Of a stretch of 64,000 nt of DNA, positions 3,471 through 45,800 are shown piece by piece. The DNA lies in contig OX597818.1 in NCBI GenBank assembly GCA_951406725.2, positions 39,680,001 through 39,744,000 on the forward strand, in the 5' to 3' direction. This DNA is from Octopus vulgaris (taxonomy: Eukaryota). A program made the position numbers and the translations under genes. The notes beneath the pieces were generated by a model. It was not told where the DNA came from. It saw nothing but the letters and a program-made list of their open reading frames with translations, and did no database searches. Numbering within the stretch: position 1 is the stretch's first letter; each line of letters opens with the position of its first letter.

Positions 3471-3892
3471 AAAATCAGCTTTGACAATAAGTCTTTCTTT
3501 GCTGCTTCCACCTCCAGAAATCATTGGATTGGGTTTGTCATCAGCATCTCCTACATCATTTGTTTTGTCATCAGCATCTCCTACATCATTTGTTTTGTCA
3601 TCATTTTTCGGTTGATCTCCTTGCATACCATCATCACCACCAACATCCTTGACTTCTGTTTTATTATCCCTTTTTTCTTCTTCAACCACATTAGTATTAC
3701 TACCATTATTTTTACCGTCATCAACACTGCTATCATCCTTACTGTCACTTTTAGTATCATTTTTACTATCATCGCCACTACCATCATCCTTATTGTCAGT
3801 TGTATCCTTGCTATCATCAGTGTCTCCCACATTTTTATCATCATCGCCACTACCACCATCCTGCTTATCTTCTATGTCAGGTTTATCTCTTC
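3471..3892 (-). CDS. Asp/Gly/Lys-rich low-complexity exon (1 to 0), 140 aa
   Basis: attttaag acceptor in phase with the previous exon; gtaagt donor after KADF (read-through stops at 3450). 38 Asp in 140 aa; ORF 3450..3830; internal 30-bp duplication ([10 protein letters not shown] x2). Confidence 0.82.
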
Positions 3893-6800
3893 CTTAAAAT
3901 ATATGTATATAAATATATATATATATATTAGAATGTATTACATGATATGTTTTTAAATGGAATCAGATTTAATCAGAATATGCAAATGCTTGATTATGTT
4001 TAATTACCTTTTACCAATGTAAATTTTAAATTAGATAATTAAGTATCTTTTTTATCTTTTATCTTTTTATATATTAAATGTATTGGAAAGCAGACGTTAA
4101 ATGATGATATATACATTTAATACACACACACATACACACACATATAAATAAATATACATATATATTTTCCTCTGTCTTCCCTTCTCTGGAACTTTCCTTC
4201 TCCTATGTTTCTGACCAAGAGCTCCGCTTGAAACGTTAAACCCTCCTTCTTTCCTTCTTTCCTGAGTGTCCAATAATACTATATTTGTTCCACGTCCTCA
4301 TGCTGTTGTGTTTTTTTTTGTGCTTTCTTGTTTGGATTAACTCTCTCTCTCTCTCTATATATATATATATATATATATAGAGAGAGAGAGAGAGAGAGAT
4401 ACATACATACATACATACATACATACATACATGCATGGAAAATGATAAAAGATAAAAGAAAGTGAAAGATGGGACTGAAGCAGGAAGGCAGAGAATAAAA
4501 GGGAAACAAAGAGTTTGAAAAGGGGTTTAGGTAATGAAAAGAAAGGCGTTTTAGACAAAAAATGTGAAAGAAAATCCTGATAACCTAGGGTTCACGTAAT
4601 TTTGATAGTTACCTTCAAAATTGGTCATGTTTTTCAAAATGCCTGCTAAATTATTCACCACTCTACTGACTATATTGGAATTTCTACTCAACCAGCTTGT
4701 CTGTTTTTCTAGGGAACATGGTTCACCGGTTACAAATCTTTCAACAGCTTTTCTAGAAGCATAAGATACAAAATAATAATAAATGAATAAATTATTCATA
4801 AGAATCATTCTTCAAACACATTATTTAAATGCGACAATTGTTGTTTTGTAAATTTATCGACAGGTTTTCTAAAAAGTAATTGCATAAGATACAAAATAGT
4901 AACAATTTCAAATTTTGGCACAAGGCCTTCAATATCAGTGAATTGGGTAAATTGGTTGCATCGACCTCAGTGCTTGACTGGTACTTATTTTATCAATACT
5001 GAAAGGATGAAAGGCAAAGCGGATCTTGGCAGAATTTGAACTCAGAACGTAATGACAAGAAATGCTGCCAAGCATTTTGCTTGGTGTGTTAATGGTTCTG
5101 CCAGCTCGCTGTCGTTAAATACAAAATAATAACAAGAAGAAATAAATTCTTTTATTCTTTTATTTGTTTCAGTCATTTGACTGTGGCAGTGCTGGAGGAT
5201 CACCTGTTAGTCGAAGAAATCAACCCCAGGACTTGTTCTTTCTTTTATAGAACCACTAAGTTACGGGGATGTAAACACACCAACATCAGTTGTCGAGCGA
5301 TGGTTGGGGAGCAAACACAGACACATAAACATATATCCTCCTCCTCATCATCATCACCATCACCATCACCATCACCACCACCACCACCACCACCACCACC
5401 ACAACCACCACCACCACCATTACCACCACCACCACTACCACCATCATCATCATCATCGTCGTCATCATCATCATCATCATTGTTTAACGTCCACTTTCCA
5501 TGCTGGCATGGGTTGGATGGTTTGACTGAGGACTGGCAAGCCAGAAGGCTGCGCCAGGCTCCAATCTGATCTGGCAAGGTTTCTGCAGCTGGATGCCTTT
5601 CCTAATGTCAACCACTCCAAGAGTGTAGAGGGCCAGTCAGGCAGTACCACAATCTAATGGTACTTTTTACATGCCACTGGCACAAGAGCCAGTCAGGTAA
5701 CACTGGCAACAACCACGCTCAAATGGTGCTTTTTACATGTCACCAGCATGGGAGCTAGTCAGACGGCACTGGCATCTATATATATATATATTTATATATA
5801 TATATATATATATATATATATATATATATATGTGTATGTGTATGTGTATATATATGCTATAGTCCAATGCTATAGTAGGAGACACTTGCCCCAAGGTGCT
5901 GTGGGACTGAACCCAGAACCATATGGTTGGCAAGCAAACTACTTACCACACAAATAATTTATAAGAATGATTATTCAACAAATTGGTTATTTAAATGCAA
6001 CAATTGTTTTTTGTCCACAGTAATAATGCTTAGTGACATTTCACTTGTCTTTACGCTCAGAGTTCAAATTTCACTGAGGTCAGCTTTGCTTTTCATCCTT
6101 TCAAGATCTATAAGATAAATACCAGTTTAGTACTGGGACTGATGTAATCAACTAGCCCTCTTCAACCAAATTTCAGGTCTTGTGCCTATAGTAGAAAGGC
6201 TTATCATTATTATTATTATTATTATTATTATTATTCAGTAGCTTTATTTTTATAGCGTGCTTTCACTTCACTACCGAGCGCAGCTCTGTGTGCCTTGGGT
6301 ATGTGCTGTGATTTGTTGTGATGCTCTGATGGTTAATGTATGGAAAGTGTTCTGCGTAGGATGTGTGCAGTGCCTAGTAGTGCAATTTTCTGTATGTTAT
6401 ATGTGTTTGTAAGTCCTGGTGTTTTTGTTATGTATTTGTCTGAATATTTCTTTATCATGCCTAATGCACCTACTATGATAGGAATTGTTTCTGTTTTCAG
6501 ATTCCACATTCTTCTTCTTCTTATTATTATTATTATTGTTATTATTATTATTATTATTATTATTATTATTATTATTATTGAGTGAGAGAGCAGTGCATGC
6601 CATCAAAATGACACTGGGGTTAAATATACAAATACCCATCATGACAATCCACCTGATAAGGGTACACCAGCTACATGCATTACAACCATATGTGTGTGAC
6701 ACGGTGATCTCATATCAAGATAAACAGCACATGACCTTGCAGGTGGGGCCCAGTTAGAATTTTCTTCTAGTTGAGTAACCCACCCCACTCAAAAGGTCCC

Positions 6801-42800: not shown

Positions 42801-45800
42801 AGTCCAGCAGCACTGGCAACGACCTCGCTGAATGTTTTTCACGTGCCACCAGCACAAGTGCCGGTAAGGCAACACAGGTAATGATCATGCTCGAATGGTG
42901 TTTTTAACATGCCATCAGCAATGATCTCACTCGTATGGTCCACTAGCACGGATGCCAGTCATCGAATTTGATTTCGATTTCGATTTCGATTTTGTTATGA
43001 GATTTTAATTAGAATGAAAAACAAATTCTATAGAACGTTTTAAAATGGAAAAGTATCAAGAGACACTGTTTCAAAGTGAATATGAAACTGTTCTCAGTGT
43101 AGAGGTTAGGATTGCTTTCATTGCTCTGCTGAGGCAAATAATTGAAAAAAATTTTTCCTTCAAACAGGTGCAGGCATGGCTGTGGGGTAAGAAGGCAGCG
43201 AGCTGGCAGAAATGTTAGCACGCCGGGTGAAATGCTTAGCGGTATTTCGTCTGCCGCTACATTCTGAGTTCAAATTCCACCAAGGTCAACTTTGCCTTTC
43301 ATCCTTTTGGGGTCGATTAAATAAGTACCAGTTATGCACTGGGATCGATATAATCGACTTAATCTGTTTGTCTGTCCTTGTTTGTCCTCTCTGTGTTTAG
43401 CCCCTTGTGGGTAGTAAAGAAATAGGTAGACCTTTCAAGGAATTTTACAATCAATAACAAAAAGATAAAAATTGAAAAAAAAAAGAAATTTTTTTAAAAT
43501 TAAAAAACAACGCTAATATAAGGACATACATGACGACTTGAGGACTGAGTTTTTCCAGATCAGCTTTGCCAATCCCACACAACAGACTTCCAACCATTTT
43601 AATATCAGTTAGGTTTATATTTAAAATATTTCCTAACTTAGTAGTGTTCAACCAATTTCCAAACAGCTGAGTTAGCTGAAATACAAAATAATACAAAATT
43701 ATAAGAATTATTAATGTGTTACGGTAATCTTTATGCAACGAATCAGTATTCTTTAGTTAAATGTTAAACATCCCTCTCCTTTCAACAGTTCTGGTTGGAT
43801 CGCAAGATGGCCTGCTGTACTCACCTTGGATTGTAGGGCGACCTGCTGTGCTTGAGGAGACCTATTGAGTCAAGTACATCAACATCAAAAAATCAAATGG
43901 AAATTGTAGTCGTGATACCTGTGCCGGTGGAACCTAAAAAGCACCATCCGTACGTGGCCGATGCCAGCGGTGCCTTGACAGGCTTCTGTGCCAGTGGCAC
44001 GTAAAAAGCACCAACTGATCGTGGCCGTTGCCAGTCTCCCCTGGCACCTGTGCCAGTGGCACGTAAAAAAAAAAGCACCCACTACACTCACGGAGTGGTT
44101 GGCATTAGGAAGGGCATCCAGCTGTAGAAACACTGGCAGGTCAGGCTGGAGCCTGGTGCAGCCTCCTGGCTTCCCAGACCCTGTTCGAACCGTCCAACAC
44201 ATGCCAGCATGGAAAACAGATGTTAAACGATGATGATGATGATGGTATGCAAATGTAAGCTCATGTTAATCTATGAAGGTATCACTTTCACATTGTAACT
44301 AAATGGTTGTTCAATATCTTCTTTTCCTTGTAAGGCAGCGAGCTGGCAGAAACGTTAGCACACCAGGCAAAATGCTTAGTGGTGTTTTGTCTGTCTTTAT
44401 GTTCTGAGTTCAAATTCTGCTAAGGTCGACTTTGCCTTTCATCCTTTCGGGGTTGATAAGTTAAGTACTAGTTGCATACTGGGGTCGATCTAATCAACTG
44501 GTCTCCTCCCCCAAAATACACAACCACCATATATATATGTATATATATATATATGTGTGTGTGTATATATACACACACACACACACATATATATATACAT
44601 TGAAAGATACAGAAATAAATATTTTATTCTCAACTACATGATAATGCTAATAAAATAGCGTGATCAGGATAAATTATCCATACATTGCAGAAAATTACAT
44701 TACCGGCAAGCCATGAGACTCGAACTCACATCCCTGTGATTACGCGTCAATACATCTCAACGCTTCTAAAACAAACTTTGTTTGTTCACTTTCATCATAA
44801 GTTGAATTTAACGTTAGCATCTCATGAAGCTAAATTAATAAGTTCTAAAATTGCAGAAGAATTCATTACAGCTCAGTTTAGCTTAATCGTAAAGCACTTA
44901 TTGCATAATCACAAAGATGTGAGTTCGAGTTTCATGGCTGGCCAATAACATATTTTTCTACAATGTGTGTGTGTGTGTATGTATGTGTACTTGTGTGTGA
45001 TCAACTCCTCCAGTGCCCCCTCCTCTCAAAATTCCTTGCCTTGCAAGCTATTTGGTGACCCTGCCAATGCTGGTGCCACAAGAAAGGCATCCAGCCTCCA
45101 CTGTGAAGTTGTTGGTATTTGGAGGGATATATATATATACACAGTCAAACCATCCAACCCATGCTAGTATGGAAAGTGGATGTTAAATGATAATGATGAT
45201 GATGATGATACATACATATATATATATATATATATATATACACATATGCATGTATGTATGTATATATATGTGTGTGTGTATATATTTACACATACATATA
45301 CATACATATATATACACACATACAAACACACACACACACACACACACACATATATATGCACAGGTATGGCTGTGTGGTAAGTAGCTTGCTTACCAACTGC
45401 ATAGTTCCAGGTTCAGTCCCACTGCATGGCACTTTGGGTAAGTATCTTCTACTATAGCCTCTTGCCAACCAAGTCCTTGTGAGTGGATTTGGGAGACGGA
45501 AACTGAAAGAGGCCCATCGTATATATGTATATATATATATATATGTGTGTGTGTGTGTGTGTGTGTATGTTTGTGTGTCTGTGTTTGACCCCACAACATC
45601 GCTTGACAACCGATGCTGGTGTGTTTACGTCCCCGTAACTTAGCAGTTCGGCAAAAAGAGACCGATAGAATAAGTACTAGGCTTAAAAGACTAAGTCCTG
45701 GGGTCGATTTGCTCGACTAAAGGTGGTGCTCCAGCATGGCCACAGTCAAATGACTGAAACAAGTAAAAGAATAAAAGAGTATATATATATATATATGTAT

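What the first reader, a model, noticed from the sequence alone, without database searches (positions are those of the whole stretch)
3471..43675. Stereocilin/otoancorin-like protein extended by six tandem three-exon, two-cysteine modules
Seen: after exon 54664-54819 the gene runs through exons with strictly periodic phases (0-2, 2-1, 1-0) six times. A exons are 119-158 nt with exactly one Cys late in the exon (LLC, ILC, LAC, TLC, SSC, LAC). B exons are 137-146 nt with exactly one Cys about 10-15 residues in (DSCN, LTCT, FSCT, KPCS, DNCI, EPCS). C exons 1-5 are 71-92 nt with no Cys. Known (recalled): module 1 matches the single last block of vertebrate stereocilin/otoancorin (LG..LCG / C / W....LG / I..IP), followed there only by a short segment and GPI signal; these proteins tether hair bundles or sensory epithelia to overlying acellular gels. 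Inference: a cephalopod family member whose helical solenoid was lengthened by roughly 550 aa through exon-triplet duplication, one disulfide per unit, possibly a long tether in statocyst or epidermal-line hair-cell organs. The ORF track misses this almost entirely.
Basis: partly seen in the sequence, partly recalled or inferred. Interest (0 to 1): 0.85.

Follow-up and report, generated by a model that had tools for sequence, protein, structure and literature searches.

The report
Doubled, module-extended octopus otoancorin-like protein
This octopus gene encodes a 2,400-residue relative of mesothelin and the inner-ear anchor proteins that holds two copies of the family's core with five extra two-cysteine modules between them, and it likely acts as a cell-surface matrix anchor that is predicted to be cut into three pieces, in a tissue not yet known.

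Summary
In detail: 17 minus-strand exons with strict 0-2/2-1/1-0 phases, one Cys in each A and B exon, and an open frame. RNA-like contigs in 3 of 4 runs laid join the exons tested, and one contig's length fits the whole A2-to-linker chain to the base. The reading needs correction. The array is not a C-terminal extension. The gene spans about 139 kb and 51 exons (2,406 aa): signal peptide, a 578-aa family core ending in module 1, five extra modules (577 aa; module 6 has no C exon; module 5 homology not significant), an acidic linker, a second 578-aa core ending in a seventh module, and a GPI-like tail. Each core has a furin motif just before its mesothelin-like part, so cleavage would separate the array from the anchor, which weakens the long-tether idea. 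Orthologues exist, uncharacterised, in three Octopus species (Pfam Stereocilin above cut-off); O. bimaculoides models lack one triplet. No non-Octopus homologue was retrieved, so lineage specificity and tissue are untested. The scan noted a different Cys-repeat array in a shark stereocilin paralogue, not this layout. Verdict: new variant of a known family; interest 0.45.

The parts
63787..64000 (-). Intron; the gene continues upstream outside the window: 11 more exons, from the signal-peptide exon G000:C5:39783829-39783742 to G000:C5:39748519-39748338
63693..63786 (-). Core 1 exon u3 (phase 2-0), counterpart of d8 in core 2
   Evidence: z 8.5
58272..58437 (-). Core 1 exon u2 (0-1), ends in furin motif RIKR (aa 609-612)
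   Evidence: motif kept in all three orthologue proteins
55277..55470 (-). Core 1 exon u1 (1-0), start of the mature-mesothelin-like part, two Cys
   Evidence: model residue 4 aligned to mesothelin 299
54664..54819 (-). Core 1 exon u0 (0-0)
43530..43675 (-). A1 (0-2, LLC); module 1 is the last block of core 1
   Evidence: Pfam PF21058 best stretch covers it in the orthologue
42075..42217 (-). B1 (2-1, DSCN)
40138..40229 (-). C1 (1-0)
   Evidence: joined to A2 in X6 and X10
37965..38086 (-). A2 (0-2, ILC)
   Evidence: joined in X1, X6, X10
36118..36263 (-). B2 (2-1, LTCT)
   Evidence: joined to A2 in X1 and X10
35283..35374 (-). C2 (1-0)
   Evidence: depth 27, 11.2, 9.35 in X1, X6, X10; P0010
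33260..33408 (-). A3 (0-2, LAC)
28757..28899 (-). B3 (2-1, FSCT)
26504..26589 (-). C3 (1-0)
23245..23390 (-). A4 (0-2, TLC)
20678..20814 (-). B4 (2-1, KPCS)
19122..19192 (-). C4 (1-0); absent from all 7 O. bimaculoides models
15458..15576 (-). A5 (0-2, SSC); most diverged module; absent from O. bimaculoides models
12691..12836 (-). B5 (2-1, DNCI); absent from O. bimaculoides models
11761..11834 (-). C5 (1-0)
8353..8510 (-). A6 (0-2, LAC)
4613..4752 (-). B6 (2-1, EPCS)
3471..3892 (-). Acidic low-complexity linker exon (1-0; 44 D/E in 141 aa, 3 Ser-Gly), not a C exon
   Evidence: kept in P0010 (140 of 141) and P0004
1..3470 (-). Intron; the gene continues downstream outside the window: 18 more exons G000:C5:39679455 to 39644494, holding core 2 (furin motif RRKR at aa 2088-2091, module 7 at 39650291-39646354) and the GPI-like tail

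Best explanation
The gene encodes a 2,406-aa member of the mesothelin/otoancorin/stereocilin family with two 578-aa cores and five extra two-cysteine modules between them, and the protein is likely GPI-anchored on an epithelial or germ-cell surface, predicted to be cut at two furin motifs, and likely to hold overlying glycoprotein matrix through its mesothelin-like parts. Shown: gene structure, splicing of the exons tested, internal duplication, family, conserved Cys pairs and furin motifs, hydrophobic ends. Inferred origin: a whole-core tandem duplication or read-through fusion (identical exon phases, 22% identity), and serial duplication of the last three exons of core 1; any three consecutive exons keep the frame, so modules can be gained, lost or skipped. 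The module is the family's own repeat: mature mesothelin has two such Cys-pair blocks, and core 1 extends the run from two to seven. Inferred working: furin would give an N-terminal piece (30-612), a large glycosylated middle piece (613-2091: mesothelin-like head, five-module helical spacer with one disulfide each, acidic linker, front half of core 2) and a membrane-bound mesothelin-like piece (2092 to about 2384). The array would be a stiff spacer within the middle piece, which is shed into the matrix or kept on the anchor by non-covalent stacking.
For: Exons and frame. Splicing. One ORF holding both cores in three species. Core 1 vs core 2: score 312, z 41.8. Family: PF21058 E 1.2e-14; Atlas neighbours Mesothelin, Stereocilin, Otoancorin for exon d11 and for modules 2-6 of P0006 (scores 0.83-0.86, a lead only); Foldseek top hits mesothelin; post-furin parts align from the first residues of mature mesothelin (model 4-256 to 299-543, Z 8.4, rmsd 7.2, 235 aligned; model 1-290 to 307-583, Z 7.2, rmsd 10.0, 257 aligned). 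Modules: leave-one-out 20-32 bits for 6 of 7, 0 of 200 shuffles each; Cys-to-Cys alignment for 4 of 5 extra modules; Cys spacing 25-30 against 26 for the C442/C468 disulfide of mesothelin (PMC10035497); Cys kept 14 of 14 in O. sinensis and 12 of 12 present in O. bimaculoides. Furin motifs: exactly two sites, both kept in three species; even Cys counts per piece (12, 22, 6); 32 sequons in the middle piece. Mesothelin precedent for furin cleavage, GPI anchor and MUC16 binding: PMC10035497, PMC2628672.
Against: No direct evidence on tissue, cleavage, anchoring or ligand. The fold of modules 2-6 was not predicted (pLDDT under 50 from residue 193 to 820), so the disulfides and the rod shape rest on homology. 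Structural Z-scores of 7-8 tie with unrelated armadillo proteins. Module 5 fails the profile test (6.5 bits; 5 of 200 shuffles and 6 of 48 control windows score as high). Pfam Mesothelin PF06060 was not hit and sequence searches of the PDB did not find mesothelin. The modules have lost the W..LG motif and could have lost any binding role.
Confidence: 0.55

Rival explanations
1. One reading: an intact (uncut or stably stacked) long tether linking hair bundles to cupula or statolith matrix in the statocyst or epidermal lines, lengthened by the array.
For: Family role in the vertebrate ear (PMC2628672, passages). Conserved Cys pairs and length. Cut solenoids can stay stacked (own knowledge).
Against: A furin motif kept in three species lies between array and anchor at the place where mesothelin is cut and its front half released (PMC10035497); even Cys counts give no sign of a bridge across it. 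Spliced contigs occur in 3 of 4 runs from 4 studies, tissues unknown. No paper links the family to cephalopods in the searches made.
Confidence: 0.2
2. A gonad or sperm surface protein that binds egg coat, spermatophore or testis matrix, with the array as a fast-changing spacer.
For: Otoancorin homologue expressed in testes of Botryllus (PMC4523013, passages) and upregulated in starfish testes (PMC9759900, one passage). Module count differs between species models; the 3 exon variants shown all change the residue (too few to count as a test).
Against: No gonad data for this gene; the one gonad paper checked has no gene-level table in its held supplement. Identity to O. bimaculoides in the array (73-88%) is like the rest of the protein (76-88%, module 7 98%).
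Confidence: 0.15
3. The shed middle piece is a matrix or mineral-binding protein (statolith, mucus, cuticle), its acidic Ser-Gly linker carrying glycosaminoglycan or binding calcium.
For: 44 D/E and 3 Ser-Gly in 141 aa of the linker; 32 sequons in the piece; linker kept in all three species.
Against: The linker differs in length and sequence in O. bimaculoides and is half missing in P0011; acidic linkers are common disordered spacers.
Confidence: 0.08
4. The layout is real but general: molluscan or wider invertebrate members share the double core and the array, so nothing is special to octopus (bears on novelty, not on mechanism).
For: Modules are only 11-25% identical to each other, so the duplications are old; the module is an intrinsic family repeat (u1-u0 scores 19.8 bits against the module profile).
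Against: None obtained: only Octopus proteins were retrieved, by searches too weak to show absence.
Confidence: 0.3
5. Chance exons, an assembly artefact or two separate neighbouring genes.
For: P0011 omits module 2 and half the linker; the joint from linker to core 2 was not tested on reads.
Against: Spliced contigs, base-exact contig length, single ORFs with both cores in three species' annotations, no signal peptide or tail between the cores (hydropathy).
Confidence: 0.02

Closest known systems
Octopus uncharacterised proteins LOC106874393 (O. bimaculoides), LOC115212334 (O. sinensis), CAI9722730.1 (O. vulgaris)
   Same: Orthologues; P0010 matches all 51 exons; P0011 is identical to the window's exons where present. 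Pfam PF21058 is precomputed for them.
   Different: Not described: 0 papers for the two LOC ids. All 7 O. bimaculoides models lack C4-A5-B5; P0011 lacks A2-B2-C2, half the linker and the GPI-like tail.
Mesothelin precursor (MSLN; PF06060; PDB 8CX3, 7UED, 8CXC)
   Same: Furin site followed by a helical ARM/HEAT-like solenoid with two Cys pairs and a GPI signal (PMC10035497); both post-furin parts align from the start of mature mesothelin.
   Different: 622 aa with one core; here 2,406 aa with two cores, five extra modules and an acidic linker; 11-15% identity; PF06060 not hit.
Otoancorin (OTOA, 1,153 aa) and stereocilin (STRC, 1,775 aa; PF21058)
   Same: Signal peptide, helical family region, GPI-like end; PF21058 above cut-off; Atlas neighbours.
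   Different: Longer; duplicated core and module array. That the vertebrate proteins have a single terminal block is recalled and implied by the single conserved region in PMC2628672 (OTOA 570-1020, STRC 1194-1666); no vertebrate sequence was available to test it. Orthology to either is unresolved.

Membership tests
Mesothelin/otoancorin/stereocilin superfamily | Profile match to a family model above its curated cut-off | tested here: met
   PF21058 54.7 bits vs 26.6, E 1.2e-14, 5 stretches on orthologue P0001; single exons gave no family hit (0 of 42)
Mesothelin/otoancorin/stereocilin superfamily | N-terminal signal peptide | tested here: met
   Hydrophobic 19-aa windows starting at residues 5-15, exon found, kept in orthologues; hydropathy only, no predictor run
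Mesothelin/otoancorin/stereocilin superfamily | C-terminal GPI signal (hydrophobic end, no cytoplasmic tail, small residues about 20-30 from the end) | tested here: met
   Tail windows 2386-2388 above 1.6; S-D-G at 2384, 23 from the end; rule recalled, no predictor run, anchoring itself untested
Mesothelin/otoancorin/stereocilin superfamily | Superhelix of short helices like mesothelin in the cores | tested here: met
   Core 2 post-furin model pLDDT 73.2, all helical; Foldseek ranks mesothelin 1-2 and 1-4 for core 1; VIA Z 7.2-8.4, partly tied with armadillo proteins
Mesothelin/otoancorin/stereocilin superfamily | Same fold in the extra modules 2-6 | tested here: inconclusive
   Model unreliable there; profile support for 4 of 5; Atlas lead
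Mesothelin/otoancorin/stereocilin superfamily | Cys pairs about 24-26 apart forming disulfides | tested here: inconclusive
   Spacing 25-30 in all 7 modules and conserved; bonds cannot be measured from the tool output
Mesothelin proper | PF06060 match | tested here: not met
   Not listed for P0001 or P0004 at E up to 10; none in own genome
Mesothelin proper | Furin motif directly before the mature domain | tested here: met
   RIKR 609-612 and RRKR 2088-2091, kept in three species; position by structural alignment
Stereocilin or otoancorin orthology group | Groups with vertebrate STRC or OTOA in a tree | not testable with these tools
   No vertebrate or non-Octopus sequence retrieved
Stereocilin or otoancorin orthology group | Expression in hair-cell epithelia and attachment to an acellular gel | not testable with these tools
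   Run tissues are not given

The most novel reading that the evidence does not exclude
A cephalopod-specific, furin-processed three-part anchor of hair-cell organs: a membrane-bound mesothelin-like base holds a 1,479-aa arm whose reach to the cupula or statolith is set by the number of three-exon disulfide modules, tuned between species and isoforms by whole-triplet loss or skipping (six modules here, five in O. bimaculoides models), a solution parallel to vertebrate stereocilin and otoancorin.
Probability: 0.12. Interest if true: 0.75.

Novelty: new variant of a known kind. Interest (0 to 1): 0.45.

Why it matters
The family is known from the vertebrate ear and from cancer, and its invertebrate members are barely described. 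This gene shows that the Cys-pair block of mesothelin can be repeated as a unit of about 120 residues, and that the furin-plus-core design can be doubled in one chain. It gives a named candidate for the unknown molecular link between cephalopod hair cells and their overlying matrix, or for a sperm surface protein, testable with existing tissue RNA-seq and in situ probes. Exon-triplet expansion in extracellular proteins is itself common, which limits the surprise.

Tried and rejected
Pfam scans of 42 single exons gave no family hit; they are too short. PDB sequence searches with two exons, P0010 and alignment A3 did not find mesothelin. Word-index searches: exon u1 against 113-2,000-aa proteins empty, explained by the protein's length; conserved module-7 region against shorter proteins empty; the profile search gave 3 hits, 2 of them unrelated repeat proteins, dropped. 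These blanks do not show absence outside Octopus. No RNA holder is on record as RNA. X4 shows no exon cover, which is no evidence of silence. Joint tables were crowded by dispersed repeats, so no skipping isoform could be sought. Reads were laid on 34900-42000 only; other joints rest on contig arithmetic and orthologue models. A weak PF21058 match on C23 showed no support as a paralogue in 100 kb; own-genome searches with four queries found no second gene (weak, exon by exon). No further A or C exons in 244 kb (the B-exon list was cut from view). The idea that the linker and exons d0-d2 are the front of a second gene copy got only weak support (z 0.6-1.5 here, 4.2 in O. bimaculoides). The module tree is poorly resolved; best pairs are 3-6, 1-2, 1-3, 4-5. 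AlphaFold failed on modules 2-6; alignment A4 was poor and unused. The complex predictor, meant to ask whether the two sides of the second furin site stay stacked, was not available. The supplement of PMC2628672 (family alignment) is a picture and could not be read; it bears on the comparison with vertebrate blocks. bioRxiv supplements are closed and could hold expression data.

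
Full report
1. The observation. All 17 module exons and the 422-nt exon at 3892-3471 have AG/GT ends, phases 0-2, 2-1, 1-0, and join with four upstream exons into 1,047 codons without a stop. Every A and B exon holds one Cys and C1-C5 none. 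With recalled intron-phase frequencies the series has a chance of about 7e-9. The exon in the sixth C slot is an acidic low-complexity linker (44 D/E in 141 aa), not a C exon.

2. Splicing. Of 24 listed runs (RNA status is the tool's guess) four were laid on 34900-42000, which holds 4 of the 17 module exons. Contigs join A2 to B2 (X1), C1 to A2 to B2 (X10) and C1 to A2 (X6) with the introns left out; X4 has no depth in the B2 and C1 bins. The table of pieces was cut. Two length checks extend this. The 3,384-nt X1 contig, if all 14 exons from A2 to B6 are joined, ends at linker base 319, exactly where the only repeated 31-mer in the 7,221-nt CDS begins (that these contigs are built at k = 31 is recalled); dropping any triplet would move the end by 327-384 bases. 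The X6 contig ends one base before a variant site in B2.

3. The whole gene. Flanking DNA shows the gene running well past both ends of the window. The final model has 51 exons over about 139 kb and 2,406 aa, with one stop at the end. Order: signal peptide; N-terminal region; core 1 (aa 279-856), whose last three exons are module 1; modules 2-6 (857-1433, 577 aa); acidic linker (1433-1573); a short region; core 2 (1757-2334), whose last three exons form a seventh module; a tail exon; a hydrophobic end without cytoplasmic part. The two cores are both 578 aa, have the same exon phases and align at score 312, z 41.8 against 100 shuffles. So the array is internal, not a C-terminal extension.

4. 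Orthologues. A profile of one exon pair found O. bimaculoides LOC106874393 (1 true hit of 3), and a search with it found O. sinensis LOC115212334 and a predicted O. vulgaris protein. All are uncharacterised and hold both cores in one chain. The O. sinensis protein matches the model exon for exon; the O. vulgaris protein is identical where present but lacks A2-B2-C2, half the linker and the tail, although RNA contigs carry module 2. All 7 O. bimaculoides records lack C4-A5-B5. Because module 5 is only 11-21% identical to the other modules it is old, so this is loss, skipping or a gap in that species rather than a recent gain here (inference). Any three consecutive exons keep the frame. No protein outside Octopus was retrieved; these searches are too weak to show absence.

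5. Family. The orthologue scores 54.7 bits on Pfam PF21058 Stereocilin (cut-off 26.6; best stretch over module 1 and into A2). PF06060 Mesothelin is not hit. Language-model neighbours of a core-2 exon and of modules 2-6 are mesothelin, stereocilin and otoancorin clusters (leads only). The post-furin part of core 2 folds with pLDDT 73.2 into short helices; Foldseek ranks mesothelin first and second, with designed armadillo proteins close behind, and VIA aligns it end to end with mesothelin 307-583 at Z 7.2, tied with armadillo proteins. The model of core 1 plus array is unreliable beyond residue 192, but its first 256 residues align with mesothelin 299-543 at Z 8.4. I file it in the superfamily; orthology to stereocilin or otoancorin is untested.

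6. Are the modules homologous? Leave-one-out profiles score modules 1, 2, 3, 4, 6 and 7 at 20-32 bits, reached by 0 of 200 shuffles and 0 of 48 control windows each; module 5 scores 6.5 bits, reached by 5 of 200 and 6 of 48. A profile of modules 1 and 7 alone gives 8.6-16.3 bits for modules 2, 3, 4, 6 (0-1 of 200 shuffles, 1-3 of 48 controls) and 2.9 for module 5. Profile alignment puts both Cys in register for modules 2, 3, 4 and 6, with low probabilities (1-77%), and not for 5. The best control window is u1-u0, the first Cys-pair block of the mesothelin-like part, so the module is the family's own repeat. Cys spacing is 25-30; mesothelin has disulfides C302/C326 and C442/C468 (PMC10035497, passages). 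All module Cys are kept in O. sinensis (14 of 14) and O. bimaculoides (12 of 12 present). One disulfide per module is thus likely but not shown.

7. How it probably works. The chain has exactly two furin-type sites, RIKR 609-612 and RRKR 2088-2091, both kept in three species (consensus recalled), each directly before the part that aligns with the start of mature mesothelin, where mesothelin itself is cut (PMC10035497; PMC2628672, first fifth of the text and passages). Cleavage would give pieces of 583, 1,479 and about 293 residues with 12, 22 and 6 Cys. The array sits in the middle piece, which carries 32 of 39 sequons, and would be separated from the GPI-bearing piece. My best reading (0.55): a surface-anchored mesothelin-like base plus a long glycosylated arm with its own mesothelin-like head, binding glycoprotein matrix as proposed for the family (PMC2628672), the array serving as a stiff spacer. 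Whether the arm stays stacked on the base could not be tested. A gonad role is a real rival (0.15): otoancorin-like genes are expressed in testes of Botryllus (PMC4523013, passages) and starfish (PMC9759900, one passage).

8. Literature. Searches: stereocilin with cephalopod, 0 papers; otoancorin with octopus, 2 ascidian papers; each LOC id, 0; family with mollusc and evolution terms, 2 papers, none on this gene by listing; statocyst hair-cell transcriptome terms, 2, off topic by listing; seen as listings. The held supplement of an O. sinensis gonad study has no occurrence of the id and no gene-level table (PMC11202624, supplements only). The library lacks most subscription papers. The scan's own notes hold a different array, a four-Cys repeat in a shark stereocilin paralogue, not checked here.

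9. Verdict. Real, expressed, conserved within Octopus, and a new architecture of a known family: doubled core, five extra modules, two furin sites. Triplet expansion in extracellular proteins is common, the tissue is unknown and lineage specificity is untested. Interest 0.45.

Noticed in passing
window 23397-23646: 4.6 tandem copies of a 54-nt unit that contains the A4 splice acceptor; the upstream copies are in frame and could add 18-aa steps if used. Orthologue proteins and the X1 contig length fit the last acceptor.
   Followed up: partly
P0001/P0004-P0009 residues about 220-375; window counterpart G000:C5:39763690-39763391: O. bimaculoides has a long Arg/Ser/Thr-rich tandem repeat of 13- and 19-aa units in the N-terminal region that varies among its seven records; here the stretch is short and degenerate.
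   Followed up: partly
G000:C5:39650291-39646354 (module 7): The membrane-proximal module is 97.7% identical to O. bimaculoides against 73-88% elsewhere, the strongest constraint in the protein.
   Followed up: partly
L019/L018, about G000:C5:39629843-39630300, plus strand: Exon-like frame with Lys/Ala/Thr/Pro repeats (TPAK) after an acidic stretch, belonging to a convergent neighbouring gene; nucleolin- or FKBP-like by recall only.
   Followed up: no
L003 (window coordinate about 75870, plus) and L012 (about 171104, minus): Open frames of 618 and 626 aa that look like LINE reverse transcriptases; transposase-like fragments at window 30991 and about 69505 (labels recalled).
   Followed up: no
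window 36195, 38022, 40190: The three exon variants shown in the RNA contigs all change the residue (R to K, K to R, S to L); 35 rows of the table were not shown.
   Followed up: partly
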